A DNA stretch of 64,000 nt from a virus (Duplodnaviria; Caudoviricetes). The number at the start of each line of letters is the position of its first letter. The first letter of the stretch is position 1. The position numbers were made by a program, and so were the translations under genes. Below are positions 4,562 to 60,207 of this stretch, piece after piece. Below the pieces are notes generated by a model that was given only the letters and a program-made list of their open reading frames with translations, searched no databases and was not told where the DNA came from. The DNA lies in the IMG/VR virus record IMGVR_UViG_3300037310_000131, positions 1 through 64,000 of that record, one strand, 5' to 3'.

Positions 4562-5112
4562 TGGTGGCCTCCGGTTGGCCGATTGACACGGGATGCCTCG
4601 ATCTCCTTTTGCAAGAGGGCGAGGGCGCGCCACGCCACCTTGGCCGTGTGGCGCAGGCCATCCGCATCCCGGGTTCCGCGCTGCACAAAGTGGCGCATCA
4701 GGGCGTCGGCCTCGTCTGTGCTCTTGGAGCGGTCCCAGTGTAGCGGTTGCCCCGGGTGATGCTGCTCATTGCCAACAAAGCTGACGTTGGCGACCTCCAT
4801 GATGGCGTCAGGGAAGTAGTCGATTACCCCGCTGGCCACCGGAATGCGCTTGCGCGACTGCGGGTCCGACAGGCTGGGCACCGGGTTCCCCTGTGCCGTC
4901 ACGCCCGCGCCACCCTGCTTGGCCACCGGCACCTTGCGGTACACGCAAAAACCGATGCCGTTCAGCAGCCAAACCGGAGCACCATGATACGCGTCCGGTA
5001 TCAGCTCAAGCTCGCGTCCGCCGCACTCGCTCTCGAAGGAGTAGTAGTCACCGGGCTCTACCGGCCCGCGCTCCACGTGCTGCATGCCGGAGAAATGCTG
5101 TGGGTTGTTCAT
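4558..5112 (-). CDS. DUF5664-type dATP/dGTP diphosphohydrolase-domain protein
   Basis: RKRIPVASGVIDYFPDAIMEVANVSFVGNEQHHPGQPLHWDRSKSTDEADALMRH...HTAKVAWRALA matches the family pattern. Confidence 0.75.
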   Translation of the reverse strand: MNNPQHFSGMQHVERGPVEPGDYYSFESECGGRELELIPDAYHGAPVWLLNGIGFCVYRKVPVAKQGGAGVTAQGNPVPSLSDPQSRKRIPVASGVIDYFPDAIMEVANVSFVGNEQHHPGQPLHWDRSKSTDEADALMRHFVQRGTRDADGLRHTAKVAWRALALLQKEIEASRVNRPTGGHQ

Positions 5113-5114
5113 GT

Positions 5115-5306
5115 TTACACCAGCACGAGCGTCACCGCTCGCACCTGAACCTGATTGCCTGTTGTTTTGTGTTGCCATAGAGTGTATTCGTCAGAGAACG
5201 GGTCATAGCCCTTGCGGATGTACGCTGCGGCCTTGCGCCCAACGGCATCGAAGTCGCTTCCGTAGACCATGATGGCGTTGGTTCCAATGATTTTGACCTT
5301 GCTCAT
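5115..5306 (-). CDS. hypothetical protein
   Basis: 63 aa, stop abuts the next ATG at 5112. Confidence 0.5.
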   Translation of the reverse strand: MSKVKIIGTNAIMVYGSDFDAVGRKAAAYIRKGYDPFSDEYTLWQHKTTGNQVQVRAVTLVLV

Positions 5307-9095: not shown

Positions 9096-9621
9096 ACAAA
9101 GCTTGACAGCGCGCCCGGCGCGCGCCAATCGTGTGCAAAAGGAGCACAGGCTTTCTCGCTCCATCGGCAAAATCGTAAACGCGAACGCCAGAGAAAGCGG
9201 CGCGAAGCAGGTGCCGAGCGCGGGGCCGCCTTAAACAAGCCAGCCACCTGAAATAATCTGGACGCTGAACGGAGACCCAAACAGCGTTAAAGTAGCTAGG
9301 GGGACAGCAACCCCGGTGGGACCCACAGATGCAGATTTCTGCGACGCGGTTATCGAGCTAAGCCAGCGCGTTCTGTGGGGTGTTGTATACCATACGGATA
9401 CCACACTTGAGGACATTTCTTCAAACCATCTCCATCCCTCCGCAGGGGTGGAGTGTGCCCAGCCGTTTCCAGCCTTAACGACATCCCTCGGTCTTGGGGC
9501 TTGTGCCGGCCCGCTTTGCGCGGGCCTGTATTATGTAGAAAGTTGAAGCTTAGCCAATAATAGTGTTGCCATTTGCCGCAGAAATCTATCAATGACGCGG
9601 ATGGAAACCAGCAAAGCGAAC

Positions 9622-10038
9622 ATGCCACATGTCACAATCTACACAGATGGTGGGTGCGATCCAAATCCCGGCCTTGGGTCGTGGGCGTATGTGTTGGTGT
9701 ATGGCAAGCACCAAAAGGAGGGGTGCGGCGTCGAGGAGAGCTCGACCAACAATCGCGCCGAGTATATCGCCATGATCGAGGGGATGAAGGCCCTAAAGCG
9801 GCCGTGTAGGGTCACGATAGTCACCGATTCCATGAACAACGTATTTCTGTTGCGAGCCGGCAGGGTGAAGTCGCACAAAAGAAAGCACCAAGATTTGGTC
9901 AACCAGATTCTCGACCTGATGGACATTCATGTTGTTGATTATCAAATCATTAAGGGGCATTCTGGGGTCGTCGGAAACGAGCGGTGTGACCAGCTTTGCC
10001 ATCAGGCTAGAAGAGATTTTTTGAAAAAGTTTGCATAA
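9622..10038 (+). CDS. rnhA: ribonuclease HI
   Basis: IYTDGGCDPNPGLGSW, STNNRAE, IVTDS, KGHSGVVGNERCDQL. Confidence 0.95.
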   Translation: MPHVTIYTDGGCDPNPGLGSWAYVLVYGKHQKEGCGVEESSTNNRAEYIAMIEGMKALKRPCRVTIVTDSMNNVFLLRAGRVKSHKRKHQDLVNQILDLMDIHVVDYQIIKGHSGVVGNERCDQLCHQARRDFLKKFA

Positions 10039-10240: not shown

Positions 10241-10315
10241 GCCTCAGTGATGTAGGAGTAAACATACGTCGTTGCCAACGATGATACCAGAGTGCGAATC
10301 TCTGCTGGGGCACCA
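10241..10315 (+). tRNA. tRNA-Gly(GCC)
   Basis: acceptor GCCTCAG/CTGGGGC, loop TT GCC AA, encoded CCA. Confidence 0.9.
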
Positions 10316-10320
10316 ATTTC

Positions 10321-10395
10321 GGGTCGCAAGCATTTCAAGCGATGCGCTAGGCTTTTACCCTTGAGAACTCGGGGCAGTACCGAGGCGACCCACCA
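10321..10395 (+). tRNA. tRNA-Lys(TTT)
   Basis: GGGTCGC/GCGACCC, loop CT TTT AC, CCA. Confidence 0.88.
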
Positions 10396-10401
10396 ATTTA
10401 T

Positions 10402-10476
10402 CGCGACTGACCAAGCAAGCGCATGGGCCTGCCCGCAAAGCAGTGAAGCCGGGAGCGTTACCCGGAGTCGCGTCCA
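10402..10476 (+). tRNA. tRNA-Cys(GCA)
   Basis: CGCGACT/AGTCGCG, U73, loop CC GCA AA, CCA. Confidence 0.85.
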
Positions 10477-10482
10477 CTTAGT

Positions 10483-10551
10483 TGCCAGTTTGGTATTCAA
10501 CTGCAACCTTCACCTGGGGAGAGGCGCAGGCTCGAATCCTGCACTGGGGTA
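10483..10551 (+). pseudogene. degenerate tRNA, anticodon undetermined
   Basis: clean T-arm GCAGG CTCGAAT CCTGC and partial acceptor; poor anticodon stem, no CCA. Confidence 0.5.
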
Positions 10552-10702
10552 AAATCTCAGTTCGTATAGCGGATAGTATACTCCCTGCTCCAGCTATAGG
10601 CGACACAATGCCACTCAGTCTTGTAAGAAAAGCGCAGCAGTTTTTCTTACATGGTGCTCACGAAAGTTGTGCGACAGCCGGGAGAGACCGACACCTGAAC
10701 AT

Positions 10703-10779
10703 GGGCCAAAAGCATTGTTGGTAATGCGCCTCCTTTGCACGGAGAATGCTGGCGGGTTCGACTCCCCCTTGGTCCACCA
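10703..10779 (+). tRNA. tRNA-Ala(TGC)
   Basis: GGGCCAA/TTGGTCC with G3:U70, loop TT TGC AC, CCA. Confidence 0.92.
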
Positions 10780-10784
10780 ATTTC

Positions 10785-10860
10785 GTGCGCGTGGCTCATA
10801 TAGCTGAGCACCATCCTTCCAAGCTGGCCCAAGCAGGTGCAAGTCCTGTCGCGCACTCCA
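10785..10860 (+). tRNA. tRNA-Gly(TCC)
   Basis: GTGCGCG/CGCGCAC, U73, loop CT TCC AA, CCA. Confidence 0.88.
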
Positions 10861-10863
10861 TTT

Positions 10864-10923
10864 GGTCCTGCGGGCACTGCCGCCCGCTCCCCTCGGGGGC
10901 ACCTGAAAGAACAGGTCTGGACC
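10864..10923 (+). ncRNA. 60-nt four-way-junction RNA, unknown
   Basis: GGTCCTG/CTGGACC closing three GC-rich hairpins. Confidence 0.5.
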
Positions 10924-10931
10924 CCCTTTTT

Positions 10932-11018
10932 CCAGTCGTGCCAGAGCAGCAATTGGAGTGCGCTGTAAACGCATTGCCCCAGCGGGCTACATAGGTGCAA
11001 GTCCTTTCGACTGGACCA
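10932..11018 (+). tRNA. tRNA-Tyr(GTA), long variable arm, C1:G72
   Basis: CCAGTCG/CGACTGG, loop CT GTA AA, CCA. Confidence 0.9.
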
Positions 11019-11024
11019 CTTCAT

Positions 11025-11101
11025 TGTCTCGTAGCTCAGATAGTCAGAGCGCCCGCTTGATAAGCGGTAGGTCGTCGGTGCGAAACCGACCGGGACAACC
11101 A
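11025..11101 (+). tRNA. tRNA-Ile(GAT)
   Basis: TGTCTCG/CGGGACA, loop TT GAT AA, CCA. Confidence 0.92.
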
Positions 11102-11102
11102 T

Positions 11103-11420
11103 TTACACCACGACAATTCCTTCACGGATTTCGTGATGGCAGTTCGAGCAAACCAAAACACGCTTCTTGGCTTCTTCTAAAAGAGCCTCAAAGTTCTGGC
11201 CATGACCCTTGGTAGGGATGCCAAGTGACCTTTGTTGTGGGTCGCGGTGGTGAAAGTGAAGTGCAGATATGCAGGTTTTGTAGCCACAAGCACTGCGCTC
11301 GCCGCCAAATAGAGCAACAAGCCGTTGCTTGTTCTTGAGCCTGTTTACCTTGATATGTGCGTAGTTCCCTGTGCGTTTCTTTGAACCACCGGGAGCGGTA
11401 ATAACTTTTGAAATAGACAT
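11103..11420 (-). CDS. HNH endonuclease, possibly decayed, antisense within the tRNA array
   Basis: ACGYKTCISALHFHHRDP...LVCSNCHHEI. Confidence 0.75.
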   Translation of the reverse strand: MSISKVITAPGGSKKRTGNYAHIKVNRLKNKQRLVALFGGERSACGYKTCISALHFHHRDPQQRSLGIPTKGHGQNFEALLEEAKKRVLVCSNCHHEIREGIVVV

Positions 11421-11455
11421 AGCTAATCAAATGACGATTAGCATGGTCTGTCGAT

Positions 11456-11527
11456 AGGGCCGTGGCGAAGTCGCCAAGCAGAACTCCAAATCCTGTTATG
11501 GGAGCGCAATACTCTCCGGCTCTGCCA
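11456..11527 (+). tRNA. tRNA-Trp(CCA), shortened D-arm
   Basis: AGGGCCG/CGGCTCT, G73, loop CT CCA AA, CCA. Confidence 0.82.
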
Positions 11528-11649
11528 ATTTATGTTAGAGATAGCAGTCACAGCGTACGTCGCGTTCTGGATGATCCTTCTTCCGGCGCGGCGTAAGAAC
11601 TAGCAAATCAACAGGGCGAGCGGCCCACTCCGCCGCCCTTTAACTTTCT

Positions 11650-11724
11650 GGGCGTGTAGCTGAGATAGATTAGCGCGTGTCTGAAGAACACGAGACGCTG
11701 GAGCGTTACCAGCCTAGCCCACCA
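11650..11724 (+). tRNA. tRNA-Phe(GAA)
   Basis: anticodon arm CGTGT CT GAA GA ACACG, mismatched acceptor, CCA. Confidence 0.85.
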
Positions 11725-11729
11725 CTTTA

Positions 11730-11801
11730 TGCCGGGAGCTTCGGAAGCCGGCAAGGCTCATACCCTTGTCGAAGCACGTTCGACCCGTGCCCCAGCACCC
11801 A
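11730..11801 (+). tRNA. tRNA-Met-type(CAT), degenerate D-arm
   Basis: CAAGG CT CAT AC CCTTG, T-arm GCACG TTCGACC CGTGC, CCA. Confidence 0.75.
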
Positions 11802-11870
11802 TTTGGGCCAACGCAGTGAAAAGTACCGAAATGCCAAAGTAGCGAAAATCGAGTCGTTGTGCCCATTTAT

Positions 11871-11946
11871 CCATCCGAAGTGTTATCTGGTTGCACGTTC
11901 CGTTTGGGGCGGAATTGTCTCGGTTCAAATCCGGGCGGGTGGACCA
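11871..11946 (+). tRNA. tRNA-Pro(TGG)
   Basis: CCATCCG/CGGGTGG, loop TT TGG GG, CCA. Confidence 0.92.
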
Positions 11947-11952
11947 CTTTAT

Positions 11953-12027
11953 GGGGCTATGGAGTAGTGGTAACTACAGCGCACTGTCCATGCGCAGTCC
12001 GGGGTTCGATTCCCCGTAGCCTCGCCA
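11953..12027 (+). tRNA. tRNA-Asp(GTC)
   Basis: GGGGCTA/TAGCCTC, G73, loop CT GTC CA, CCA. Confidence 0.93.
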
Positions 12028-12032
12028 TTTAT

Positions 12033-12108
12033 GCGCGATTAGAATAGCGGCTAATTCGACAGTCCTACACACTGTTCATCGGGGGTTCGAGTCCCTCATT
12101 GCGCACCA
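12033..12108 (+). tRNA. tRNA-Val(TAC)
   Basis: GCGCGAT/ATTGCGC, loop CC TAC AC, CCA. Confidence 0.92.
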
Positions 12109-12133
12109 CTTTATTGTTGACTGCGTATATCTG

Positions 12134-12307
12134 GTGTGTACTGAAACATGGATTAGTTGCCATATAGATAAAACCTTGCACAAGAACGGACAATGCCGGG
12201 CAACACATGGCAAAATAAGGTGTTATCAAAACGGATGCAGGTGCGAAAGGTGTCGCGCAGCAAACGCAGAGCGTTCTAGAATTTATAGAGCAAAGTCTTT
12301 ATTGTAG
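12134..12307 (+). pseudogene. 57-codon HNH-endonuclease C-terminal remnant
   Basis: manual translation VCTETWISCHIDKTLHKNGQCRATHGKIRCYQNGCRCERCRAANAERSRIYRAKSLL; GTG start uncertain. Confidence 0.55.
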
Positions 12308-12378
12308 AGAAGGCAAATGGCTAGCCGGTTGTCTGTTAAACAACGTCGTTGATAGTTCGATTCTATCCTCTACAGCCA
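12303..12378 (+). tRNA. tRNA-Asn(GTT) copy 1
   Basis: TGTAGAG/CTCTACA, G73, loop CT GTT AA, CCA. Confidence 0.9.
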
Positions 12379-12382
12379 CTTC

Positions 12383-12457
12383 GGGTCGGTAGCTCAGCGG
12401 TAGAGCGTTCGATTGTTAATCGAATGGTCATTGGTTCAATCCCAATCCGTCCCTCCA
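12383..12457 (+). tRNA. tRNA-Asn(GTT) copy 2
   Basis: GGGTCGG/CCGTCCC, loop TT GTT AA, U73, CCA. Confidence 0.88.
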
Positions 12458-12458
12458 G

Positions 12459-12534
12459 CCCCGCTTAGCTCAGCAGTTAGAGCGTCTGCCTGACATGCAG
12501 AAGGCGGCTGGCGCGACACCAGCAGCGGGGACCA
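12459..12534 (+). tRNA. tRNA-Val(GAC)
   Basis: CCCCGCT/AGCGGGG, loop CT GAC AT, CCA. Confidence 0.9.
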
Positions 12535-12535
12535 T

Positions 12536-12611
12536 CGGAGCCTAGCCTAGCGGTTGAGGCACTTGTTTCGGGAACAAGACGAGGCGAGTTCGACTCTCGC
12601 GGCTCCGACCA
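12536..12611 (+). tRNA. tRNA-Pro(CGG)
   Basis: CGGAGCC/GGCTCCG, loop TT CGG GA, CCA. Confidence 0.95.
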
Positions 12612-12617
12612 TTTTAT

Positions 12618-12693
12618 GGACCATTGGTGTAGCGGCACTGCACGTCGAGCTTTGAACTCGAAGGTCTTGGGTCAGCACCAAGATGGTCTGCCA
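12618..12693 (+). tRNA. tRNA-Gln(TTG)
   Basis: GGACCAT/ATGGTCT, loop CT TTG AA, CCA. Confidence 0.9.
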
Positions 12694-12698
12694 ATTTC

Positions 12699-12772
12699 CG
12701 CCCTCTGGTGTAGTAGTAGCACCACGGATTCTGAACCCGTTAGTCTTGGAGCGTAACCAAGGGGGGCGGCCA
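12699..12772 (+). tRNA. tRNA-Gln(CTG)
   Basis: CGCCCTC/GGGGGCG, loop TT CTG AA, CCA. Confidence 0.9.
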
Positions 12773-12835
12773 TTTTAGTCTCGCGTACCATGAGTACAAG
12801 GAGCAACGGCCCCGTATTTTTGCGCGGCCAGCCAA

Positions 12836-13055
12836 TTTCCAGCAGGAGCGCATTCGCTGTTCGCAAATTGCGAATGGAGGAAGTTCGCGTCTGCGCAACA
12901 CACCGAGGCAGGGCTTGTTCTTTGGTTCAAGTCCGCTATGACCTCATGGTAGCAGCAACCCAAACAGACTGAGGATGAGTGTTGTCCTGCGATGTCGGGT
13001 TGGGGCTTAGACAAATGAATGCGGTCAACAGAAACGCGGCTACGTCCACTGGAAA
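12836..13055 (+). ncRNA. rnpB: minimal RNase P RNA (catalytic domain, rudimentary S-domain, no P18)
   Basis: GAGGAAGTTCGCG (12877-89) pairs with ACAGAAACGCGGCTA (13028-42) as P4 with bulged U; P2 CGCATTC/GAATGCG; TTAGACAAATG junction; P6 CAACAC/GTGTTG; P15 AACCC/GGGTT. Confidence 0.8.
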
Positions 13056-13062
13056 AATTTTT

Positions 13063-13139
13063 GGAAGCGAAGCCACAGTAGACGGGCACCCGGCTCTTAC
13101 CCGGATTTCGTGAGGCTGCGACTGCCTCCGCTTCCACCA
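13063..13139 (+). tRNA. tRNA-Lys(CTT)
   Basis: GGAAGCG/CGCTTCC, loop CT CTT AC, CCA. Confidence 0.88.
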
Positions 13140-13205
13140 CCTTCCAGTCAAGATGCCGTAAACTCACAGTGTGTGTTCGGGACCTTCATCTTGGCTGGGT
13201 TCTTT

Positions 13206-13277
13206 GGCCGGTGATTCAGCAATCCACAGGGTTTCATAAGCCCAGTGAATCGGGGGCAGCACCCGGACCAGCCACCA
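13206..13277 (+). tRNA. tRNA-Met/Ile2-type(CAT)
   Basis: GGGT TT CAT AA GCCC, acceptor GGCCGGT/ACCAGCC, CCA. Confidence 0.78.
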
Positions 13278-13281
13278 ATTT

Positions 13282-13357
13282 GCCTGTGAAGTTCATATAG
13301 CTGAACGTGTCCTTGGTAAGGACAATGCAGCGGGTGCAAGTCCCGCCTCAGGCTCCA
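13282..13357 (+). tRNA. tRNA-Thr(GGT)
   Basis: TGTCC TT GGT AA GGACA, CCA. Confidence 0.9.
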
Positions 13358-13358
13358 T

Positions 13359-13442
13359 GGGCGCGTGGTTAACTACGAATAGCAGAGTATTCTGCCTTAG
13401 AAGCAGACAGCCTTGGGGGTGCAAGTCCCTCCGCGCCTACCA
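13359..13442 (+). tRNA. tRNA-Leu(TAG), short variable region, enlarged D-loop
   Basis: GGGCGCG/CGCGCCT, loop CT TAG AA, CCA. Confidence 0.82.
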
Positions 13443-13449
13443 ATTTCAT

Positions 13450-13524
13450 GGCCCAATCGACAACCAGCTAAGTCACTGCGCTTTCAACGCGGAGTACCGG
13501 GGGCAGCACCCGGTTGGGCTACCA
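13450..13524 (+). tRNA. tRNA-Glu(TTC)
   Basis: GGCCCAA/TTGGGCT, loop CT TTC AA, CCA. Confidence 0.9.
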
Positions 13525-13530
13525 CTTCAT

Positions 13531-13605
13531 GGCCGCATCGTATAGAAGTCAGTACGCTGCCCTCTCAAGGCAGGAACCCCGGAGCGTTACCGGGTGCGGC
13601 TACCA
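13531..13605 (+). tRNA. tRNA-Glu(CTC)
   Basis: GGCCGCA/TGCGGCT, loop CT CTC AA, CCA. Confidence 0.92.
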
Positions 13606-13608
13606 TTT

Positions 13609-13693
13609 CGCCAACTGGATGGAATAGCAGACACGGGGCACTCAAAACGCCCTGCCGAAAGGCGTCCCGGTGCAAGTCCGGGGTTGGCGACCA
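13609..13693 (+). tRNA. tRNA-Leu(CAA)
   Basis: CGCCAAC/GTTGGCG, loop CT CAA AA, V-arm with GAAA loop, CCA. Confidence 0.92.
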
Positions 13694-13694
13694 C

Positions 13695-13787
13695 GGTCCC
13701 GTGGTGTAATGTTAGCACCGCTAGTTTTATAAACTGGGCGCACTAGATTGGTGCCGTGTGCTGGTTCAAGTCCAGCCGGGACTACCA
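13695..13787 (+). tRNA. tRNA with TAT (Ile) anticodon and long variable arm
   Basis: GGTCCCG/CGGGACT, CTAGT TT TAT AA ACTGG, 22-nt V region, CCA. Confidence 0.85.
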
Positions 13788-13791
13788 CTTT

Positions 13792-13866
13792 GGTCTGTAA
13801 GTGTTGAGAGATACACGCGGCTTTCGTAAAGCTGAATACTCGGAGCGTTACCGAGACGGACCTCCA
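13792..13866 (+). tRNA. tRNA-Thr(CGT)
   Basis: GGTCTGT/ACGGACC, loop TT CGT AA, CCA. Confidence 0.9.
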
Positions 13867-13870
13867 TTTT

Positions 13871-13946
13871 GTTCTGCAAGCATTGCTGGCGATGCGGCTG
13901 CCTTGTAAGCAGCAGATAGTCGGTTCGATTCCGGCGCGGAACTCCA
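13871..13946 (+). tRNA. tRNA-Thr(TGT)
   Basis: GTTCTGC/GCGGAAC, loop CT TGT AA, CCA. Confidence 0.95.
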
Positions 13947-14025
13947 TCAGGAGCAGTAGTGTAACCGGCAAACACAGGAGCCTGTGAAGCTCCGGTAGAG
14001 AGTTCGAGCCTCTCCCTCCTGACCA
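13947..14025 (+). tRNA. tRNA-His(GTG), atypical acceptor
   Basis: GGAGC CT GTG AA GCTCC, CAGGAG/CTCCTG, A73, CCA. Confidence 0.85.
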
Positions 14026-14029
14026 CTTT

Positions 14030-14105
14030 GCAAGACTCGGCAATGGATAGTCAGTCTCCCCGCGAAGGAGGTTTAGTCCCAGTTCAAGTCTGGGGTCTTG
14101 CGCCA
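14030..14105 (+). tRNA. tRNA-Arg(GCG)
   Basis: GCAAGAC/GTCTTGC, loop CC GCG AA, CCA. Confidence 0.85.
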
Positions 14106-14199
14106 TTTGCTTGACACAGATACCGATATTACAAATGCCGTTGCGAACTGTGTAGAAAAGCGTCTACAGAGGCGTCAAGGAAATGGAGACAATCACTTT

Positions 14200-14275
14200 G
14201 TCGCGTTCAGCCAAGCAGACAGGCGCTGGTCTTCTAAGCCAAGCAATGCGGGTGCAACTCCTGCACGCGGCACCA
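14200..14275 (+). tRNA. tRNA-Arg(TCT)
   Basis: GTCGCGT/ACGCGGC, loop CT TCT AA, CCA. Confidence 0.88.
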
Positions 14276-14278
14276 TTT

Positions 14279-14353
14279 GCTCCATTCGTCCAATGTATAG
14301 GGCCTGCGTCTTCGGAACGCATGATGAGGGTTAGATTCCTTCATGGAGCGCCA
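14279..14353 (+). tRNA. tRNA-Arg(TCG)
   Basis: GCTCCAT/ATGGAGC, loop CT TCG GA, CCA. Confidence 0.9.
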
Positions 14354-14354
14354 C

Positions 14355-14430
14355 TTTCTCGTAGCCTAAGGGATAGGCCCCGGTTTCCTAAACCGTGCGC
14401 ATGCAGGTTCGAGTCCTGTCGAGAAAGCCA
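14355..14430 (+). tRNA. tRNA-Arg(CCT)
   Basis: TTTCTCG/CGAGAAA, loop TT CCT AA, CCA. Confidence 0.93.
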
Positions 14431-14434
14431 CTTC

Positions 14435-14502
14435 GGGCCAAATACAGATTCGATTGGTCCTTCGGGCCCAAGACGCGGGGGCGGTGCCCGCTTGGTCCAC
14501 CA
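14435..14502 (+). ncRNA. mini-tmRNA-like RNA: tRNA-like domain only
   Basis: Ala acceptor with G3:U70, stemless D-loop ATACAGATTCGA, UUCG-capped hairpin in the P2 position, GAC-GCGGG/CCCGC T-arm, ACCA. Confidence 0.7.
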
Positions 14503-14506
14503 CTTT

Positions 14507-14592
14507 GGAGACGCAATCCAGCAGGGCTGGAACGGGCCTTGAAAACCCAGTGACGCGCAAGCGTTGGGATTCGACTTCTCGCGTCTCCGCCA
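14507..14592 (+). tRNA. tRNA-Ser(TGA)
   Basis: GGAGACG/CGTCTCC, G73, loop CT TGA AA, V-arm, CCA. Confidence 0.88.
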
Positions 14593-14593
14593 C

Positions 14594-14681
14594 GGAGGGT
14601 GAACTGCTCAGGGAGCAGGGCGCTCTGGAAAGGCGTACGCCCGGTCAACCGGGTGGGTTTCGATTACTCCTCCCTCCGCCA
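14594..14681 (+). tRNA. tRNA-Ser(GGA)
   Basis: loop CT GGA AA, long V-arm, G73, CCA. Confidence 0.88.
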
Positions 14682-14685
14682 CTTT

Positions 14686-14771
14686 GGAAGCAACTGAGGG
14701 CAGTTCCTCAACCGGCCTCGAAACCCGGAGTGCCCGCAAGGGCAATGGCGCAACTCCATTTGCTTCCGCCA
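14686..14771 (+). tRNA. tRNA-Ser(CGA)
   Basis: GGAAGCA/TGCTTCC, loop CT CGA AA, V-arm, CCA. Confidence 0.88.
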
Positions 14772-14772
14772 T

Positions 14773-14863
14773 GGTGAGTTAAGCAGCCGAGGCGCTGCCG
14801 GGGTTTGCTAAACCCTTGGACCGGCTAGCCCCGGTTGTGTGGCAGGAACACAACTCACCGCCA
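14773..14863 (+). tRNA. tRNA-Ser(GCT)
   Basis: GGTGAGT/ACTCACC, loop TT GCT AA, V-arm, CCA. Confidence 0.88.
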
Positions 14864-14921
14864 CTTTGTTCTTGCAATCGCCGCCGGGCGGGTACAAGGA
14901 TGTCAACGAAACGCAACTAAG

Positions 14922-15557
14922 ATGAGCATCGCAAACATACTGAACAGGCCCGTGCTTGTTCTGAATGCCAACTGGCAGGCCATCAGCGCCGCGAAGTCGG
15001 TCAAGCGCGCAATCGAGGACATGACAAGCGGAAGGCCCGAAGACGGATGGCTACCGCCTTTTCGCGGCATGGATGTCGAGCTAAACGCAGACGGCACCCT
15101 GTTCTACGCCAACCCGGTTGACTGGGACGAATGGGTGCGCCTTCCTGTGCGCCCCGGCATAGACGAGTTCGTTTCCACGGCGTTCCTCAAGATTCGCGCT
15201 CCCCGCGTCATCATATCGCGCAACTACAACAAGTCGCGCGTGCGCGTGGTTGCGCTTTCCAAGGGGGCCATCAAGCGTCGCGACGGGGGCCAGTGCCAGT
15301 ACTGCCACAGGTTCTTCCCGATGGACGAGCTGAACATTGACCACGTGATTCCGCAGCACCATGGCGGCGAGGACACGTGGGAAAACATGGTTTGCTCTTG
15401 CATTACTTGCAATTCGCGGAAGGGTCACAAGTTCAACCACGAGATTGGATACAAGCTGCTCAAGGAGCCGTCCAGTCCCGCGCCGGTTGCGGAAACAGCC
15501 ATCTACATTGAAATCAAACACCCAACATGGACACCATTCCTCAACCACCTGAAATGA
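14922..15557 (+). CDS. HNH endonuclease, McrA-like
   Basis: RPVLVLNANW N-terminus; RRDGGQCQYC...NIDHVIP...GGEDTWENMVCSCITCNSRKG. Confidence 0.9.
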   Translation: MSIANILNRPVLVLNANWQAISAAKSVKRAIEDMTSGRPEDGWLPPFRGMDVELNADGTLFYANPVDWDEWVRLPVRPGIDEFVSTAFLKIRAPRVIISRNYNKSRVRVVALSKGAIKRRDGGQCQYCHRFFPMDELNIDHVIPQHHGGEDTWENMVCSCITCNSRKGHKFNHEIGYKLLKEPSSPAPVAETAIYIEIKHPTWTPFLNHLK

Positions 15558-15946
15558 GCGAGAACATCGGAGAGGAGTCCATTCGCAAAATGCACGAGTG
15601 GATGAGGCTCCAGCGCGGCGAGCGCAACACCAACTTCTACCTCACGTCCGCCATACTCTACCTGTGCGGCAGGGTTGAGGAGCTCGAGCGGAAGCTGGTA
15701 GAGCGCTCCCGCGCTTTCCAGCCGCCCGCTCCGCAGGATGTCGAGGAATATGCAAAGACCATCAACTTCACGGTTGACGGCGAGGCGTTTTGCTCATTCT
15801 ATGAAGCTCGCGGGTGGATGATGGGCAAGGCCAAGATGAAGTCTTGGAAGGCCGCAGTCCGCACGTGGAAGCAGCGCCGCATGCCAGAGCAGAAGAAGGC
15901 CGGCCGCCTGCCAGACAATCTCTCCAACCTACATGACATCCCATAA
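15554..15946 (+). CDS. phage replication/helicase-loader-type protein
   Basis: FCSFYEARGWMMGKAKMKSWKAAVRTW motif; overlaps the start of dnaB. Confidence 0.7.
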   Translation: MSENIGEESIRKMHEWMRLQRGERNTNFYLTSAILYLCGRVEELERKLVERSRAFQPPAPQDVEEYAKTINFTVDGEAFCSFYEARGWMMGKAKMKSWKAAVRTWKQRRMPEQKKAGRLPDNLSNLHDIP

Positions 15947-17306
15947 CAACGACCGCTCGCCGCCCCACAACGCAGAGGCAGAGGAGCACGTGATTGCGTG
16001 TTGCCTTCTGGACAGCGGGGAAACCATGACTCGCGCCATCTGCCATGGCGTTCGCGAGGAAACCTTCTACTTGCCGCAGAACCGCGTCATCTGGCGCGCG
16101 ATGCTGGGCCTTTTCACGCAGAAGAACACGGTCACGCTTGAGATGCTTATCGCAGAGCTCACCGTGCGCCGCCAGATAGATGAGGTTGGCGGCTTTCCAT
16201 ACCTCATGCAGGTAACCGGCAGGGTGCCAACCACGGTGCATGCTGGATACTTCATCGAGAAGGTGATTCAGATGCGCGCCCTCCGCGAGGCAATTCGCAT
16301 CGGTACCTCCATTGTGGAGTCGTCGTACGGCTATGCCGGCGAGAGCATGGCGGAGCACCTAGCGCCATGGCTGGATGAGCTGTCCAAGGTGCAGAACGGC
16401 CTTACGGTGCGCGACGAGAAGACGCTGCAGGACGCCGCCGCCGACACCATCGAGATTGTCCGCAAGATGGCGTCTGGCGAGAACGTCGAGCCGGGCTTGG
16501 TGTCGTGGGGCTTCGCAGACCTAGACCGCATCTTCTACCCAATGACACCGGGGGAGCTGGTCATCGTGGCCGCTCGGCCGAGCGTCGGCAAGACCACCTT
16601 CGCCGACCAGATTGCCATTGCCAACGCGTTTCGCGACAGTCGCCACGTCGGAATCTTCAGCCTTGAGGTCACGGTTGAGCAGAAGCCGAGGAAGTTTGCC
16701 CAGATTATGTCGGGGCACTCGTGGCGTCGCCTGCCCAAGTTGCACGAGAAGGACCGCATTGAGTTCATTCAGGCTCTGGATGATCTCAAGAAGAACAAGT
16801 ACCTTCACTGCTTCTACCGCGAGCAGTCGATCGATGGCATTTGCGCGCGCATCCGGGCCCTCAACCAGCAGGGCAAGTTGCAGCTGGCCATCGTGGACTA
16901 TCTGCAGCTTCTGGAGGTCGGCGGAAAGGCAACGTCGCGCAATGACTCCATTGGTGACGCAACGCGCAAGCTGAAGCTGTTGGCGCTGGAGCTAAACATA
17001 CCCATAATCCTCCTCTCTCAGCTCAGCCGAGCAAACGAGCGAGAGGGCCGTGAGCCGCGTCTGTCTGACTTGCGCGACTCAGGAAACATCGAGCAGGACG
17101 CTGACCGCGTGCTGTTGTTGCACCGACCGCAAATCAATCCAATCACGAACATGCCTCAGGACACGCACGACGAGTCTGTCGATACTTTTTATACTGACAT
17201 CATCCAAGCGAAGGGTAGGGATGTCGGCACGTTCAGGATTGGGGTCTACCTCAAGCGCAGCCGCACAACCTTCGTCCCAATCACAAGAAATGAAGTTCAG
17301 GTTTAA
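15933..17306 (+). CDS. dnaB: DnaB-like replicative helicase
   Basis: PPHNAEAEEHVI, AARPSVGKTT, FSLEV, IVDYLQL, LSQLSR, PRLSDLRDSGNIEQDAD. Confidence 0.96.
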   Translation: MTSHNNDRSPPHNAEAEEHVIACCLLDSGETMTRAICHGVREETFYLPQNRVIWRAMLGLFTQKNTVTLEMLIAELTVRRQIDEVGGFPYLMQVTGRVPTTVHAGYFIEKVIQMRALREAIRIGTSIVESSYGYAGESMAEHLAPWLDELSKVQNGLTVRDEKTLQDAAADTIEIVRKMASGENVEPGLVSWGFADLDRIFYPMTPGELVIVAARPSVGKTTFADQIAIANAFRDSRHVGIFSLEVTVEQKPRKFAQIMSGHSWRRLPKLHEKDRIEFIQALDDLKKNKYLHCFYREQSIDGICARIRALNQQGKLQLAIVDYLQLLEVGGKATSRNDSIGDATRKLKLLALELNIPIILLSQLSRANEREGREPRLSDLRDSGNIEQDADRVLLLHRPQINPITNMPQDTHDESVDTFYTDIIQAKGRDVGTFRIGVYLKRSRTTFVPITRNEVQV

Positions 17307-20372: not shown

Positions 20373-21986
20373 ATGTCGCAAGGACCGCTAATTGGAGACA
20401 ACACAAATCTGCTGCTTAACAAAATCAGCATGGCTGGCTACCGACCTAAACTAAGCGATCCGCAGAATCTTCTCATCAAGAAGCTCGTCAACGCGATCAA
20501 TCAGCTACAGACTGGAGGTGGCTCGACGGGTCCGACCGGATACACTGGATACACGGGCCCAGCAGGTGGCGGCGGTGCGACTGGGCCCACGGGTTATACG
20601 GGACCGGCTGGTGCGGATGGCGCGACTGGTCCAACTGGTTACACTGGCTACACCGGCACGGCAGGCGCTCCGGGATCAACCGGCTACACAGGCTACACCG
20701 GACCCGCTGGTATTGATGGTGCCACTGGCTACACAGGCTACACCGGACCCGCTGGAGTAGACGGGGCGACGGGCCCCACGGGATACACGGGTTACACAGG
20801 TCCCGGCAACTTTACCGGATACACGGGCCCTACGGGTTACACGGGATATACCGGGCCCAATGGGTCAAACGGAAGCACCGGCCCAACTGGTTACACCGGC
20901 CCGGCTGGTCCTGATGGTCTTGACGGCCCTACTGGCTACACGGGATACACCGGTCCACGCGGAGAGACTGGGCCAACCGGACCAACAGGCTATACTGGTC
21001 CCGGAAACTTCACTGGATACACGGGGCCCACTGGATACACGGGCCCGGATGGAGCGACTGGCCCCACCGGGTACACTGGCCCCCAAGGCCCAACCGGATT
21101 CACCGGCTACACTGGCCCGGGCAACTTCACCGGCTACACTGGCTATACTGGTTACACCGGTCCTCAGGGGGCAACCGGGTTCACTGGCTACACCGGCCCA
21201 ATTGGTCCCACTGGCGCAACTGGCTACACGGGCCCGGGCAACTTCACAGGATACACTGGACCAACTGGCCCGACCGGATACACCGGACCGGGGAATTTTA
21301 CGGGGTATACAGGCTACACTGGGCCCGCCGGTCCAACCGGCTACACTGGCGACACGGGTCCGCAGGGCCCGACAGGACCGACTGGGTACACCGGTTATAC
21401 TGGTCCCGGCAATTTTACCGGATACACTGGCTACACGGGGTACACCGGTTATACTGGTCCCGGCAACTTCACTGGGTACACCGGGCCAACGGGACCAACC
21501 GGGTACACCGGCCCAGCGGGCCCGACTGGCCCAACCGGCTACACCGGTTACACGGGACCATCAGCGCTCTACGCCGCAGCCACGGCTGGAACGACGACCT
21601 CAACAAGCTTGGTTGACCTCAATGGTCTTTCGCTTGCCCTTACTGCTGGCACTTGGATTTTTGAGGCACTCATAAGCGGAAGCGCGGGCACTGGAACGGC
21701 TGGTGCAAAGTTTGGTGTACAGTACTCAGGCTCAACTACGTCTATTGATGCGCTTCATGTCGGCCAGCTCAACACCACGGGGTGGGCGGCAACGGCAAGG
21801 ATAACGGCCTTCAATACCGCCAGCACGACTGTTATGACAACCAGTGCGGCCCAGTGCCATGTAAAGATATTCGGCAAGGTTGTTGTTGCTGGTTCCGGCA
21901 ACCTTACCATCAGGGGCCTAAAGGTCACATCCGGCACCCTGACCTACAACGGCTCGTCTATGATGTGGGCATTCAAGGTGGCCTAA
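20373..21986 (+). CDS. collagen-like (G-x-T) fibre protein 1
   Basis: ~350 aa of GPT/GYT triplets followed by a beta-rich head domain. Confidence 0.85.
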
Positions 21987-60120: not shown

Positions 60121-60207
60121 AGTGTTTTCTGTGTACACACTGACACCGCGCATCAGGCAGTCAAATACTTATTGACGGAATGAGGCAAACACCCCAGCCT
60201 TTCCGCA

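What the first reader, a model, noticed from the sequence alone, without database searches (positions are those of the whole stretch)
10241..14863. 38-tRNA array with mostly non-canonical T-loops, co-located with an S-domain-less RNase P
Seen: 38 tRNAs, all 20 amino acids, each with encoded CCA. By my count 23 lack T54-T55-C56; loops include TGCAAGT, AGCGTTA, GGCAGCA, CGCGACA and GGCAGGA. Most keep C56, and many D-loops lack GG. Known: the RNase P S-domain reads the tRNA elbow (D/T loops), and TrmA/TruB act on U54/U55. Inference: elbow-remodelled tRNAs could be poor substrates for host RNase P or for elbow-reading defence nucleases, and a catalytic-domain-only RNase P would mature them. With the mini-tmRNA and adjacent RNase H, this may be a self-contained RNA-processing module.
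Basis: partly seen in the sequence, partly recalled or inferred. Interest (0 to 1): 0.78.

Follow-up and report, generated by a model that had tools for sequence, protein, structure and literature searches.

The report
Phage tRNAs with rewired elbows
A freshwater phage carries 38 tRNA genes, most of which replace two near-universal elbow nucleotides (G18 and U55) with a matching A18/G55 pair; the same compensated change turns up in hundreds of other phage tRNAs and may make them immune to enzymes that attack the standard T-loop.

Summary
There are 38 CCA-ending tRNA genes for all 20 amino acids. 23 lack T54-T55-C56 and 21 have G55. A 216-nt RNase P-like RNA sits mid-array.

New here:
- G55 always comes with A18 instead of G18, and G19:C56 is kept. 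Across about 2,700 phage tRNAs the counts are GG/U55 1728, AG/G55 877 and mixed 91.
- Seven orthologous tRNAs in a sister phage switched both positions together.
- The loops follow the YGNRA, GGNAG and AGNRU T-loop types, so the elbows are rebuilt, not broken.
- Such arrays are widespread in viral contigs and in provirus-like clusters of Verrucomicrobiota. The dispersed chromosomal T-arm motifs there are canonical.

The RNase P-like RNA belongs to a real phage family of more than 60 loci, with full covariation in P4, P5 and P15. It is not dedicated to G55 tRNAs. It occurs in 10/60 G55 phage records against 1/50 controls. However, 12/15 near-complete G55 genomes lack it, and 34/37 RNase P-bearing arrays are canonical.

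The best reading is functional tRNAs with an alternative elbow. They may be selected to escape U54/U55-directed enzymes such as T-loop-cutting Schlafen nucleases.

Earlier first-reader notes flagged both features; none had been followed up.

The parts
10241..10315 (+). tRNA-Gly(GCC), T-loop TGCGAAT, A18-G19
10321..10395 (+). tRNA-Lys(UUU), T-loop GGCAGTA, A18-G19; missed by default tools
10402..10476 (+). tRNA-Cys(GCA), T-loop AGCGTTA, A18-G19; found only at a relaxed ARAGORN threshold
10703..10779 (+). tRNA-Ala(UGC), canonical TTCGACT, G18-G19; the ortholog in L037 is G55/A18
10785..10860 (+). tRNA-Gly(UCC), T-loop TGCAAGT, A18-G19; the ortholog in L037 is U55/G18
10932..11018 (+). tRNA-Tyr(GUA), long variable arm, T-loop TGCAAGT, A18-G19
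11025..11101 (+). tRNA-Ile(GAU), T-loop TGCGAAA, A18-G19
11103..11420 (-). 105-aa ORF inside the array, function unknown (weak zinc-ribbon match only)
11456..11527 (+). tRNA-Trp(CCA), T-loop CGCAATA, 4-nt D-loop containing AG; missed by all tools
   Evidence: by eye
11650..11724 (+). tRNA-Phe(GAA), T-loop AGCGTTA, A18-G19
11730..11801 (+). tRNA-Met(CAU), canonical TTCGACC, miniature D-arm (atypical)
11871..11946 (+). tRNA-Pro(UGG), canonical TTCAAAT
11953..12027 (+). tRNA-Asp(GUC), canonical TTCGATT
12033..12108 (+). tRNA-Val(UAC), canonical TTCGAGT
12303..12378 (+). tRNA-Asn(GUU) copy 1, canonical TTCGATT
12383..12457 (+). tRNA-Asn(GUU) copy 2, canonical TTCAATC; the ortholog in L037 is G55/A18
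12459..12534 (+). tRNA-Val(GAC), T-loop CGCGACA, A18-G19
12536..12611 (+). tRNA-Pro(CGG), canonical TTCGACT
12618..12693 (+). tRNA-Gln(UUG), T-loop GTCAGCA (G54, U55, G58), G18-G19
12699..12772 (+). tRNA-Gln(CUG), T-loop AGCGTAA, A18-G19; the ortholog in L037 is U55/G18
12836..13053 (+). RNase P-like RNA. It has P1, P2, P3, P4 with a bulged U, P5, P15 and a GGU-containing L15. The S-domain is replaced by a stub of about 57 nt (12895-12951).
   Evidence: 139.9 bits to family model R1
13063..13139 (+). tRNA-Lys(CUU), T-loop TGCGACT, A18-G19
13193..13277 (+). Atypical tRNA-like gene with CAU anticodon, T-loop GGCAGCA. Its 8-bp anticodon stem covaries with the L037 copy.
13282..13357 (+). tRNA-Thr(GGU), T-loop TGCAAGT, A18-G19
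13359..13442 (+). tRNA-Leu(UAG), T-loop TGCAAGT, AG in D-loop; the ortholog in L037 is U55/G18
13450..13524 (+). tRNA-Glu(UUC), T-loop GGCAGCA, A18-G19; missed by default tools
13531..13605 (+). tRNA-Glu(CUC), T-loop AGCGTTA, A18-G19
13609..13693 (+). tRNA-Leu(CAA), T-loop TGCAAGT, AG in D-loop
13695..13787 (+). tRNA with UAU anticodon and a 22-nt variable arm, canonical TTCAAGT, D-loop without GG
13792..13866 (+). tRNA-Thr(CGU), T-loop AGCGTTA, A18-G19
13871..13946 (+). tRNA-Thr(UGU), canonical TTCGATT
13948..14025 (+). tRNA-His(GUG), canonical TTCGAGC
14030..14105 (+). tRNA-Arg(GCG), canonical TTCAAGT; the ortholog in L037 is G55/A18
14200..14275 (+). tRNA-Arg(UCU), T-loop TGCAACT, A18-G19
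14279..14353 (+). tRNA-Arg(UCG), T-loop TTAGATT (A56) with G18-U19: a compensated 19:56 pair, identical in L037
14355..14430 (+). tRNA-Arg(CCU), canonical TTCGAGT
14435..14502 (+). 68-nt tRNA-like element: G3:U70, A73, CCA, T-loop GGCGGTG, and a UUCG-capped hairpin in place of an anticodon arm. Not called as tmRNA; absent at the syntenic site in L037.
14507..14592 (+). tRNA-Ser(UGA), canonical TTCGACT
14594..14681 (+). tRNA-Ser(GGA), canonical TTCGATT
14686..14771 (+). tRNA-Ser(CGA), T-loop CGCAACT, A18-G19
14773..14863 (+). tRNA-Ser(GCU), T-loop GGCAGGA, AG present in D-loop
9592..10038 (+). RNase HI-domain protein upstream of the array (context only; not shown to belong to the system)
   Evidence: PF00075, E 2e-27
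14835..15557 (+). HNH endonuclease ORF downstream of the array (context only); DnaB helicase follows at 15933-17306

Best explanation
The array encodes working translational tRNAs. In 21 of them the standard elbow lock (G18 intercalated into a U54-U55-C56-R57-A58 T-loop) has been exchanged for a different but equivalent lock. In the new lock, A18 intercalates into a T-loop with G at its second position. The outer G19:C56 pair is kept.

The new loops are not random. They fall into three classes:
- Y-G-C-R-A, the T-loop type used by FMN and cobalamin riboswitches together with an intercalating adenosine.
- G-G-C-R-G, which resembles the rRNA GGAAG T-loop.
- A-G-C-R-U, in which the 54:58 pair is swapped.

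Such tRNAs cannot receive pseudouridine-55. They no longer present the U54-U55 dinucleotide that T-loop-directed enzymes need.

The most likely advantage (inferred, about 40-45%) is resistance to host nucleases or other factors that attack or depend on the canonical T-loop. One example is Schlafen-type nucleases that cut 5' of U55. With that resistance, phage translation would continue when host tRNAs are destroyed.

The trait belongs to phage and provirus tRNA arrays, mostly associated with Verrucomicrobiota, not to host tRNAs.

The 216-nt RNase P-like RNA in the middle of the array is a member of a widespread phage RNA family. It keeps the bacterial catalytic core and the CCA-binding GGU loop, and it has a short stub in place of the S-domain. 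It probably boosts 5' maturation of the densely packed, CCA-encoding pre-tRNAs with the host RnpA protein. It is a general companion of large phage tRNA arrays, not a dedicated processor of G55 tRNAs.

Shown: the genes, the covariation, the distribution, the RNA family and its helices. Inferred: aminoacylation and use in translation, nuclease resistance, ribozyme activity.
For: (1) Intact genes. There are 38 cloverleaf genes with encoded CCA and 20 amino-acid specificities. The scanner gives 0 hits elsewhere in the window.

(2) Tertiary covariation.
- In the window, the D-loops of the G55 tRNAs carry an AG where GG is expected (12 AG/G55, 1 GG/G55, 7 GG/U55 among the 22 scanner-called tRNAs; the rest read by eye).
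- In the first set of loci the counts were GG/U55 531, AG/G55 83, mixed 12, Fisher p 2e-89.
- Over all viral loci the counts were 1728, 877 and 91.
- In arrays found in bacterial assemblies the counts were AG/G55 859, GG/U55 265 and mixed 61.
- 19:56 also covaries. Arg-UCG has A56 with U19, and other phages show U19/A56.

(3) Sister phage L037. Seven orthologous tRNAs differ at position 55, and all seven differ concordantly at position 18, in both directions.

(4) Loop classes across 1,003 G55 tRNAs: TGCAA 353, TGCGA 306, GGCAG 100, AGCGT 67, CGCAA 30. Riboswitch T-loops have the consensus YGNRA with an intercalating adenosine, tRNA T-loops are UUCRA, and an rRNA T-loop is GGAAG (bioRxiv 10.1101/2022.12.26.521914).

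(5) G55 tRNAs exist for all 20 amino acids, making up 49-95% per amino acid in G55-rich arrays.

(6) Not a host trait. In four verrucomicrobial genomes the canonical T-arm motif has 60-87 dispersed hits. The G55 motif is concentrated in one or two clusters. Several viral records are classed as provirus.

(7) A T-loop nuclease exists. CbCash cuts immediately 5' of U55, and single U54 or U55 mutations abolish cleavage (PMC13462974).

(8) The RNase P-like RNA.
- 61 of 71 pattern hits have perfect, varied P4 pairing.
- P4, P5 and P15 have 0-2 broken pairs in 46 sequences, with 1-30 double changes per variable pair; four P4 pairs never vary.
- GGU in L15 is invariant or nearly so.
- The family lies next to canonical arrays in 34/37 loci.
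Against: - No expression, aminoacylation or modification data exist for any of these tRNAs.
- In this phage the G55 set is incomplete. Ala, Asp, Asn, His and Pro are served only by canonical tRNAs, and Met by a canonical tRNA plus an atypical G55 CAU element. A nuclease hitting every UUC T-loop would still cripple it.
- Frequent switching in both directions between the window and L037 fits near-neutral exchange as well as selection.
- No T-loop nuclease has been tied to Verrucomicrobiota or to this phage's unknown host.
- The RNase P-like RNA is about ten-fold enriched in G55 records (10/60 against 1/50, p=0.011). Some functional or lineage link is therefore not excluded.
- My 18/19 assignment rests on a simple D-loop rule.
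- The loci were chosen with patterns that favour YGCRA loops and encoded CCA.
Confidence: 0.55

Rival explanations
1. The remodelled elbows make these pre-tRNAs poor substrates for host RNase P, whose S-domain reads the elbow. The phage therefore brings its own S-domain-less RNase P to mature them.
For: - The RNA sits inside the array and lacks a normal S-domain.
- Whole-record searches find it in 10/60 records chosen for G55 tRNAs against 1/50 chosen for canonical tRNAs (p=0.011).
- Classes GGCRG and AGCRU change A58, a position with interference effects in RNase P binding (PMC11143913).
Against: - 12 of 15 near-complete G55 phage genomes lack the RNA.
- 34 of 37 RNase P-bearing arrays with at least 5 tRNAs are dominated by canonical T-loops, for example 25/25, 19/19 and 13/13.
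- After matching for array size the enrichment is not significant (8/40 against 0/13, p=0.18).
- G19:C56 and the T-stem backbone, which are what the S-domain contacts, are conserved.
Confidence: 0.12
2. Neutral or relaxed-constraint exchange. In short-lived phage tRNAs the need for pseudouridine-55, m5U54 and their chaperone enzymes is relaxed. The elbow then drifts between two structurally equivalent states by compensatory mutation, with no adaptive value.
For: - Switching occurs in both directions between the window and L037.
- Many arrays are mixed.
- Sporadic G55 tRNAs, about 2%, occur even in arrays chosen for canonical loops (16/705).
- Rare mixed intermediates exist (91 of about 2,700).
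Against: - Many arrays are 90-100% G55 across 20-35 different tRNAs (for example 26/26, 21/21, 32/35). That is hard to reach by drift alone.
- There is strong clustering in one host phylum (49 of 80 listed titles).
- Host tRNAs in the same cells stay canonical.
Confidence: 0.25
3. The non-canonical genes are decaying pseudogenes or non-translational tRNA-like RNAs. Examples would be decoys, or carriers for non-ribosomal reactions like the staphylococcal cell-wall tRNA-Gly.
For: - Default tRNA finders reject 11 of 38.
- Staphylococcal non-proteinogenic tRNA-Gly also carry UGC T-loops and lack GG (L357; PMC4574755).
- Two window genes are atypical.
Against: - All four stems, 7-nt anticodon loops, CCA ends and compensated tertiary pairs are maintained.
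- All 20 specificities occur with G55.
- In the window the only Lys, Cys, Trp, Tyr, Phe, Glu and Gly tRNAs are G55 types.
- The staphylococcal tRNAs have U18/U19 or C18/U19, not A18-G19.
Confidence: 0.04
4. Host mimicry. The host lineage itself uses G55/A18 tRNAs and the phage simply copies them.
For: Arrays with G55 tRNAs are found mostly in assemblies of Verrucomicrobiota.
Against: - In four verrucomicrobial genomes, dispersed T-arm motifs presumed to be tRNA genes carry the canonical sequence (60-87 hits against 2-17 control).
- G55 motifs above background are confined to one or two tight clusters.
Confidence: 0.03

Closest known systems
Phage tRNA sets that evade tRNA-targeting defences (T5-like phages; anticodon-loop variants; PARIS, retron Eco7 and PrrC escape)
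   Same: Phage-encoded tRNA arrays carry sequence changes at the site a host nuclease reads. Phage translation survives when host tRNAs are cut (PMC10264068, PMC11464382, listed).
   Different: The known cases change the anticodon arm or variable loop of a few tRNAs. Here the change is in the D-loop/T-loop elbow, needs two coordinated substitutions, and affects most or all tRNAs of an array. No cognate defence has been shown.
YGNRA T-loop with intercalating adenosine (FMN and cobalamin riboswitch T-loop/receptor modules); rRNA GGAAG T-loop
   Same: The sequence rule is the same. G at T-loop position 2 goes with an adenosine inserted between positions 4 and 5. C is tolerated at position 1.
   Different: Those modules join helices within riboswitches and rRNA. 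Use of this module in place of the UUCRA/G18 module inside tRNAs was not found in the literature searched.
Staphylococcal non-proteinogenic tRNA-Gly(UCC)
   Same: These are bacterial tRNAs with UGC T-loops (TGCAAGT, TGCAAAT) and no G18-G19 (L357; PMC4574755).
   Different: They have U18/U19 or C18/U19, so the elbow is weakened rather than compensated. They serve one amino acid only, bind EF-Tu poorly and feed cell-wall synthesis.
Type T RNase P RNA of Pyrobaculum, and engineered bacterial C-domain ribozymes
   Same: An RNase P RNA reduced to the catalytic domain. The isolated bacterial C-domain cleaves pre-tRNA with lower affinity (PMC5839562, PMC13462272, listed; PMC11143913).
   Different: The phage RNA has bacterial-type features (L15 GGU, P4 with a bulged U). 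It keeps a conserved stub of about 57 nt, is virus-encoded and lies within tRNA arrays. It scores below the Rfam gathering thresholds.
tRNA array units of mycobacteria and their phages and plasmids
   Same: Dense clusters of 20-40 tRNA genes on mobile elements, proposed as anti-defence cargo (PMC5966550, PMC12803027).
   Different: No elbow rewiring is reported for them. The arrays examined here as controls (Xanthomonas phage BUDD, Caulobacter phage CcrColossus) have U55 throughout.

Membership tests
tRNA (elongator, bacterial type) | Cloverleaf with 7-bp acceptor stem, D-arm, 5-bp anticodon stem with 7-nt loop, and 5-bp T-stem with 7-nt loop | tested here: met
   36 of 38 fit the standard geometry. 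11730-11801 and 13193-13277 are atypical.
tRNA (elongator, bacterial type) | Score above the curated threshold of general tRNA models | tested here: inconclusive
   Rfam RF00005 reaches its gathering score for 24/38 with sensitive filters. ARAGORN at default finds 24/38. 11 are found by neither.
tRNA (elongator, bacterial type) | Conserved G18, G19, T54, U55 (pseudouridine-55 in mature tRNA), C56 and A58 | tested here: not met
   23/38 lack TTC and 21 have G55 with A18. G19 and C56 are kept in 37/38.
tRNA (elongator, bacterial type) | Tertiary pairs 18:55 and 19:56 maintained (L-shape) | tested here: met
   Maintained by covariation only: GG/U55 1728, AG/G55 877, mixed 91. There are 7/7 concordant switches against L037, and U19/A56 in Arg-UCG. 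No structural experiment was done.
tRNA (elongator, bacterial type) | Aminoacylation and use on the ribosome | not testable with these tools
   No RNA holder is listed among public runs.
Bacterial RNase P RNA (type A, RF00010) | P4 helix with a bulged U, flanked by the conserved GAGGAA and ACAGAA...GGCU blocks | tested here: met
   Present in the window. There are 8 P4 pairs with 0 broken in 46 family members; 4 of them covary, with 7-17 double changes.
Bacterial RNase P RNA (type A, RF00010) | P1, P2, P3, P5 and P15 helices, and an L15 GGU that pairs with the tRNA 3' CCA | tested here: met
   P5 and P15 covary. P1 and P2 covariation was seen by inspecting alignment A1. G168, G169 and T170 are invariant or at least 90% conserved.
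Bacterial RNase P RNA (type A, RF00010) | Specificity domain (P7-P14) with the double T-loop platform | tested here: not met
   Only about 57 nt lie between the P5 strands (12895-12951). The model's S-domain positions are deleted in the Rfam alignment.
Bacterial RNase P RNA (type A, RF00010) | Score above the Rfam gathering threshold | tested here: not met
   RF00010 has no match in the record. The best clan member, RNaseP_arch, scores 35.1 bits against 84.
Bacterial RNase P RNA (type A, RF00010) | Endonucleolytic 5' maturation of pre-tRNA, with RnpA in vivo | not testable with these tools
   No RnpA gene was found in the 73-kb record. Host RnpA is assumed.
tmRNA | tRNA-like domain plus a tag reading frame and pseudoknots | tested here: not met
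   ARAGORN finds no tmRNA. The 68-nt element 14435-14502 has only an acceptor/T-arm and a UUCG hairpin, and it is missing at the syntenic site in L037.

The most novel reading that the evidence does not exclude
Phage and provirus tRNA arrays carry an 'elbow-orthogonal' tRNA set. It is a complete or near-complete complement of tRNAs whose A18/G55 T-loop module makes them invisible to nucleases or modifiers that key on the universal U54-U55 motif. This would let the phage keep translating while the canonical host pool is destroyed, either by the cell's own T-loop-directed immunity or by a phage-encoded weapon. A virus-encoded mini RNase P would help mature the set in some lineages. That would be a second, structurally distinct solution to the tRNA elbow, in natural use and under conflict-driven selection.
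Probability: 0.35. Interest if true: 0.9.

Novelty: new variant of a known kind. Interest (0 to 1): 0.8.

Why it matters
- T54, pseudouridine-55, C56 and G18-G19 are textbook near-invariants of cytoplasmic tRNA. Here nature uses a second, compensated elbow (A18 with G55) in about a thousand tRNAs of all 20 specificities, confined to mobile arrays.
- This gives a direct handle on what the canonical nucleotides are for: modification, quality control or immunity targets.
- It offers a testable link to the newly described T-loop-cutting Schlafen nucleases.
- It supplies natural designs for orthogonal or nuclease-resistant tRNAs.
- There is a practical consequence. Standard tRNA finders miss about a third of these genes, so phage tRNA content and codon-supply analyses are biased. 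In this phage, Lys, Cys, Trp and Ser tRNAs would be reported as absent.
- The work also shows that a reduced RNase P RNA is a recurrent phage gene. No paper in the searched library describes this.

Tried and rejected
- **Relatives through proteins.** DnaB back-translation found no relative in viral contigs. Cultured-phage searches with the array, DnaB and the RNase P-like RNA gave only generic tRNA or helicase hits. PHROGs named almost none of the structural proteins.
- **Host assignment.** A portal-sized protein searched against 401 genomes of the phylum of G001 (a Verrucomicrobiae MAG) gave one weak hit. The host remains inferred only from array similarity and the taxonomic skew.
- **Expression.** No RNA holder is listed among public runs.
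- **Promoters and terminators.** No sigma-70-like promoter was found, and terminator-like hairpins were not above the shuffled expectation.
- **Single-sequence fold of the RNase P-like RNA.** It is not better than shuffles (z -0.66). This is expected for a pseudoknotted RNA and was superseded by comparative evidence.
- **Locus-level absence of the RNase P-like RNA near G55 arrays.** The counts were 11/113 loci against 0/118 controls. This proved misleading because the RNA can lie elsewhere in the genome, so it was replaced by whole-record searches.
- **Rfam YrlA, mascRNA and similar sub-threshold hits.** These are overlaps with tRNAs.
- **Literature.** Searches for A18/G55, phage T-loop variants and phage-encoded RNase P RNA found no description.

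Full report
**What is there**

The window is the first 64 kb of a 73-kb IMG/VR viral contig. It is linear and about 81% complete. It comes from freshwater metagenomes and has no close cultured relative.

Between an RNase HI gene (9592-10038) and an HNH endonuclease and DnaB helicase lies a 4.6-kb stretch on the + strand. I parsed it into 38 tRNA-like genes, each ending in an encoded CCA, plus a 68-nt anticodon-less tRNA-like element and a 216-nt RNase P-like RNA.

- Most genes are separated by only 1-8 nt, usually N-TTT-N.
- The anticodons cover all 20 amino acids.
- ARAGORN at default finds 24. Rfam finds 17 with default filters and 24 with sensitive filters.
- Eleven genes are missed by both, including the only Lys, Cys, Trp and Ser tRNAs.
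- A strict cloverleaf scanner finds 22 in the array and none in the remaining 123 kb of both strands. Chance is therefore excluded.
- Two genes are structurally atypical (11730-11801 and 13193-13277). The second is conserved in a sister phage, with compensatory changes in its long anticodon stem.

**The T-loops**

- 21 have G at position 55, one has G54 with U55, and one has A56.
- The G55 loops fall into three classes: T/C-G-C-R-A (12), G-G-C-A-G (4) and A-G-C-G-T (5).
- C56 is kept in 37 of 38.

**The key new result: the change is compensated**

In the window the D-loops of the G55 tRNAs carry an AG where canonical tRNAs have G18-G19, and most U55 tRNAs have GG (scanner counts: 12 AG/G55, 1 GG/G55, 7 GG/U55; the remainder read by eye). 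The single A56 tRNA (Arg-UCG) has G18-U19, which restores a 19:56 pair.

The rule holds far beyond this phage.

| Data set | GG with U55 | AG with G55 | Mixed |
|---|---|---|---|
| First set of loci (Fisher p 2e-89) | 531 | 83 | 12 |
| All viral loci fetched | 1728 | 877 | 91 |
| Arrays recovered from bacterial assemblies | 265 | 859 | 61 |

The sister contig L037 shares gene order and the RNase P-like RNA. It gives seven orthologous pairs that differ at position 55: Ala-UGC, Gly-UCC, Asn-GUU copy 2, Gln-UUG, Gln-CUG, Leu-UAG and Arg-GCG. In all seven, position 18 differs concordantly, with switches in both directions. This is classical evidence for a maintained tertiary contact, and therefore for folded, selected tRNAs.

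**Why these sequences**

A study of T-loop modules reports the following (bioRxiv 10.1101/2022.12.26.521914):
- Riboswitch T-loops have the consensus YGNRA (UGNRA 89%, CGNRA 11%).
- They almost always use an adenosine that intercalates between positions 4 and 5.
- tRNA T-loops are UUCRA.
- One rRNA T-loop is GGAAG.

The phage classes TGCRA/CGCRA with A18, and GGCAG, match those alternatives. Across 1,003 G55 tRNAs the counts are TGCAA 353, TGCGA 306, GGCAG 100, AGCGT 67 and CGCAA 30. The elbows have thus been rebuilt with another known version of the same motif, and the outer G19:C56 pair is unchanged.

**Distribution**

- A tandem G55 T-arm pattern has a by-hand chance expectation of a handful of hits.
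- Those loci hold 1,538 scanner-called tRNAs, of which 909 have G55. Many arrays are 90-100% G55, for example 26/26, 21/21 and 32/35.
- G55 occurs in tRNAs of all 20 amino acids.
- Arrays chosen with the equivalent canonical pattern contain 2% G55 (16/705).
- Two cultured-phage arrays (Xanthomonas phage BUDD, Caulobacter phage CcrColossus) have none.
49 of the 80 listed titles were Verrucomicrobiota. The hits are dense arrays of up to 30 tRNAs.
- In four verrucomicrobial genomes the canonical T-arm motif occurs 60-87 times, dispersed round the chromosome. The G55 motif rises above background only in one or two tight clusters.
- Several viral records are classed as proviruses.

The trait therefore belongs to mobile arrays, not to host tRNAs. 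The window's nearest array relatives outside L037 also come from verrucomicrobial assemblies. The host itself is unproven.

**The RNase P-like RNA**

- Rfam gives only a sub-threshold match: RNaseP_arch 35.1 bits against 84, with the S-domain positions deleted. RF00010 gives nothing.
- A pattern built from the two P4 flanks found 71 viral stretches. In 61 of them the four free P4 nucleotides pair perfectly, with many different sequences.
- In an alignment of 46 distinct members, RNAalifold recovers four helices. P4 has 8 pairs and a bulged U. The others are P5, P15 and a P16-like helix. Broken pairs number 0-3, and each variable pair has 1-30 double changes.
- P1 and P2 also covary, by inspection of the alignment.
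- A GGU in the L15 position is invariant or nearly so. In bacteria this is the partner of the tRNA 3' CCA (PMC11143913).
- Between the P5 strands lie only about 50-60 nt, with their own conserved motif. This is a stub, not a full S-domain.
- No RnpA gene is in the record.
- None of the reviews or jumbo-phage surveys in the searched library mention a phage-encoded RNase P RNA.

**Are the two features linked?**

I built model R1 from the family and searched whole viral records.

| Comparison | G55-selected | Canonical-selected | p |
|---|---|---|---|
| All records | 10/60 | 1/50 | 0.011 |
| At least 90% complete genomes | 3/15 | 0/15 | 0.22 |
| At least 10 tRNAs in the locus | 8/40 | 0/13 | 0.18 |

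Conversely, of 37 RNase P-bearing loci with at least 5 tRNAs, only 3 are G55-rich. Arrays such as 25/25, 19/19 and 13/13 canonical are typical.

There is an enrichment, possibly through shared lineage, host or array size. There is no dependence in either direction.

The RNase P S-domain contacts the elbow mainly by stacking, and through 2'-OH groups and C56. These features are conserved here. Nothing therefore predicts that host RNase P would reject these tRNAs.

**What drives G55?**

- G55 rules out pseudouridine-55, and the non-T54 classes rule out m5U54. This follows from chemistry.
- A type III CRISPR-associated Schlafen nuclease, CbCash, cuts tRNAs mainly in the T-loop, immediately 5' of U55. 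It targets UUC and is blocked by single U54 or U55 mutations (PMC13462974).
- Phage tRNAs are already known to escape anticodon-directed nucleases by loop mutations (PMC10264068).

Escape from T-loop-directed enzymes is therefore my preferred driver, at about 40-45%. Three facts keep a near-neutral compensated drift model alive, at about 25%: the array in this phage is mixed, six amino acids are served wholly or mainly by canonical tRNAs, and switching is bidirectional.

Pseudogene, decoy and host-mimicry readings are disfavoured by the covariation, the complete anticodon sets and the canonical dispersed T-arm motifs in host genomes. The staphylococcal cell-wall tRNA-Gly share UGC loops but have U/C at 18-19 and are a different case.

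**Other claims in the finding**

- The 68-nt 'mini-tmRNA' has an Ala-like acceptor and a T-arm. ARAGORN does not call it, and it is absent from the syntenic site of L037.
- The RNase H is an ordinary RNase HI domain, with a replication helicase just downstream of the array.
- No tRNA-processing protein was found in the ORFs checked.
- A self-contained RNA-processing module is not demonstrated.

**Caveats**

- Positions 18 and 19 were assigned by a simple D-loop rule.
- Loci were drawn with patterns that favour YGCRA loops, GG/CC T-stems and encoded CCA.
- R1 was trained on one sequence subtype and its E-values are rough.
- Many viral records are fragments.
- No expression or biochemical data exist.

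**Verdict**

The mechanistic link to RNase P is mostly not supported. The finding is a new structural variant of tRNA carried by phage arrays, together with a new phage branch of RNase P RNA.

Noticed in passing
L003-L073 and whole records behind L076, L084, L088, L093, L096, L099, L106, L111, L123, L181, L219: The RNase P-like RNA is a family in at least 60 viral contigs of 4-494 kb, both AT-rich and GC-rich, usually inside tRNA arrays. Besides the form of about 215 nt there are variants of 250-330 nt with larger inserts between the P5 strands. Some accompanying arrays encode CCA on every tRNA and others on none.
   Followed up: partly
L305-L423; G001:C1 1.276-1.280 Mb; G002:C1 2.388-2.392 and 2.425-2.431 Mb: G55 tRNA arrays in prokaryote assemblies are strongly concentrated in Verrucomicrobiota (49 of 80 listed titles). 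A few occur in Myxococcota, Planctomycetota, Gemmatimonadota and Cyanobacteria. One 5.2-Mb contig has two near-duplicate arrays about 35 kb apart.
   Followed up: partly
window 13695-13787: A tRNA with a UAU anticodon, a 22-nt hairpin-forming variable arm (class II-like) and a D-loop without GG. Its identity (Ile or something else) is unclear.
   Followed up: no
window 13193-13277 and L037:6375-6458: A conserved atypical CAU-anticodon tRNA-like gene. It has an 8-bp anticodon stem with an internal A-A mismatch (two compensatory changes between the phages), only 2 nt between the anticodon stem and the T-arm, and a weak acceptor stem.
   Followed up: partly
window 14435-14502: A 68-nt tRNA-like element with G3:U70, A73 and CCA, and a UUCG-capped hairpin instead of an anticodon arm. 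It has no counterpart at the same place in L037.
   Followed up: partly
window 10477-10702, 10861-10931, 11528-11649, 12109-12302, 12773-12835, 14106-14199: Non-tRNA gaps inside the array. 10477-10551 is a CCA-less tRNA-like fold that ARAGORN reads with a 4-base anticodon at a relaxed threshold. 12773-12835 ends in a hairpin followed by GCCA and ATTT just before the RNase P-like RNA, like the tRNA 3' ends.
   Followed up: no
window, all tRNA 3' ends in 10241-14863: The spacer after most of the encoded CCA ends is a short N-TTT-N (4-6 nt) before the next tRNA. The same signature is seen in L037, L016 and L053, which suggests a shared processing signal.
   Followed up: no
L001 (Xanthomonas phage BUDD, ON758385.1 about 145.5-152.2 kb): The deposited record annotates no tRNAs in a gap of about 4.5 kb. 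My scanner finds about 30 tRNAs with encoded CCA across that gap and the stretch just after it, all U55, and a few with A54.
   Followed up: partly
window 4558-5178 (-): An ORF with a dATP/dGTP diphosphohydrolase N-terminal domain (PF18909, E 2e-10). Such enzymes accompany modified-base DNA in some phages (from memory, not checked here).
   Followed up: no
window 20373-21986 (+) and 58034-60153 (-): A collagen-like tail-fibre protein with many PHROG tail-fibre hits. There is also a sugar epimerase/dehydratase plus C-methyltransferase pair, which suggests glycan modification genes.
   Followed up: no
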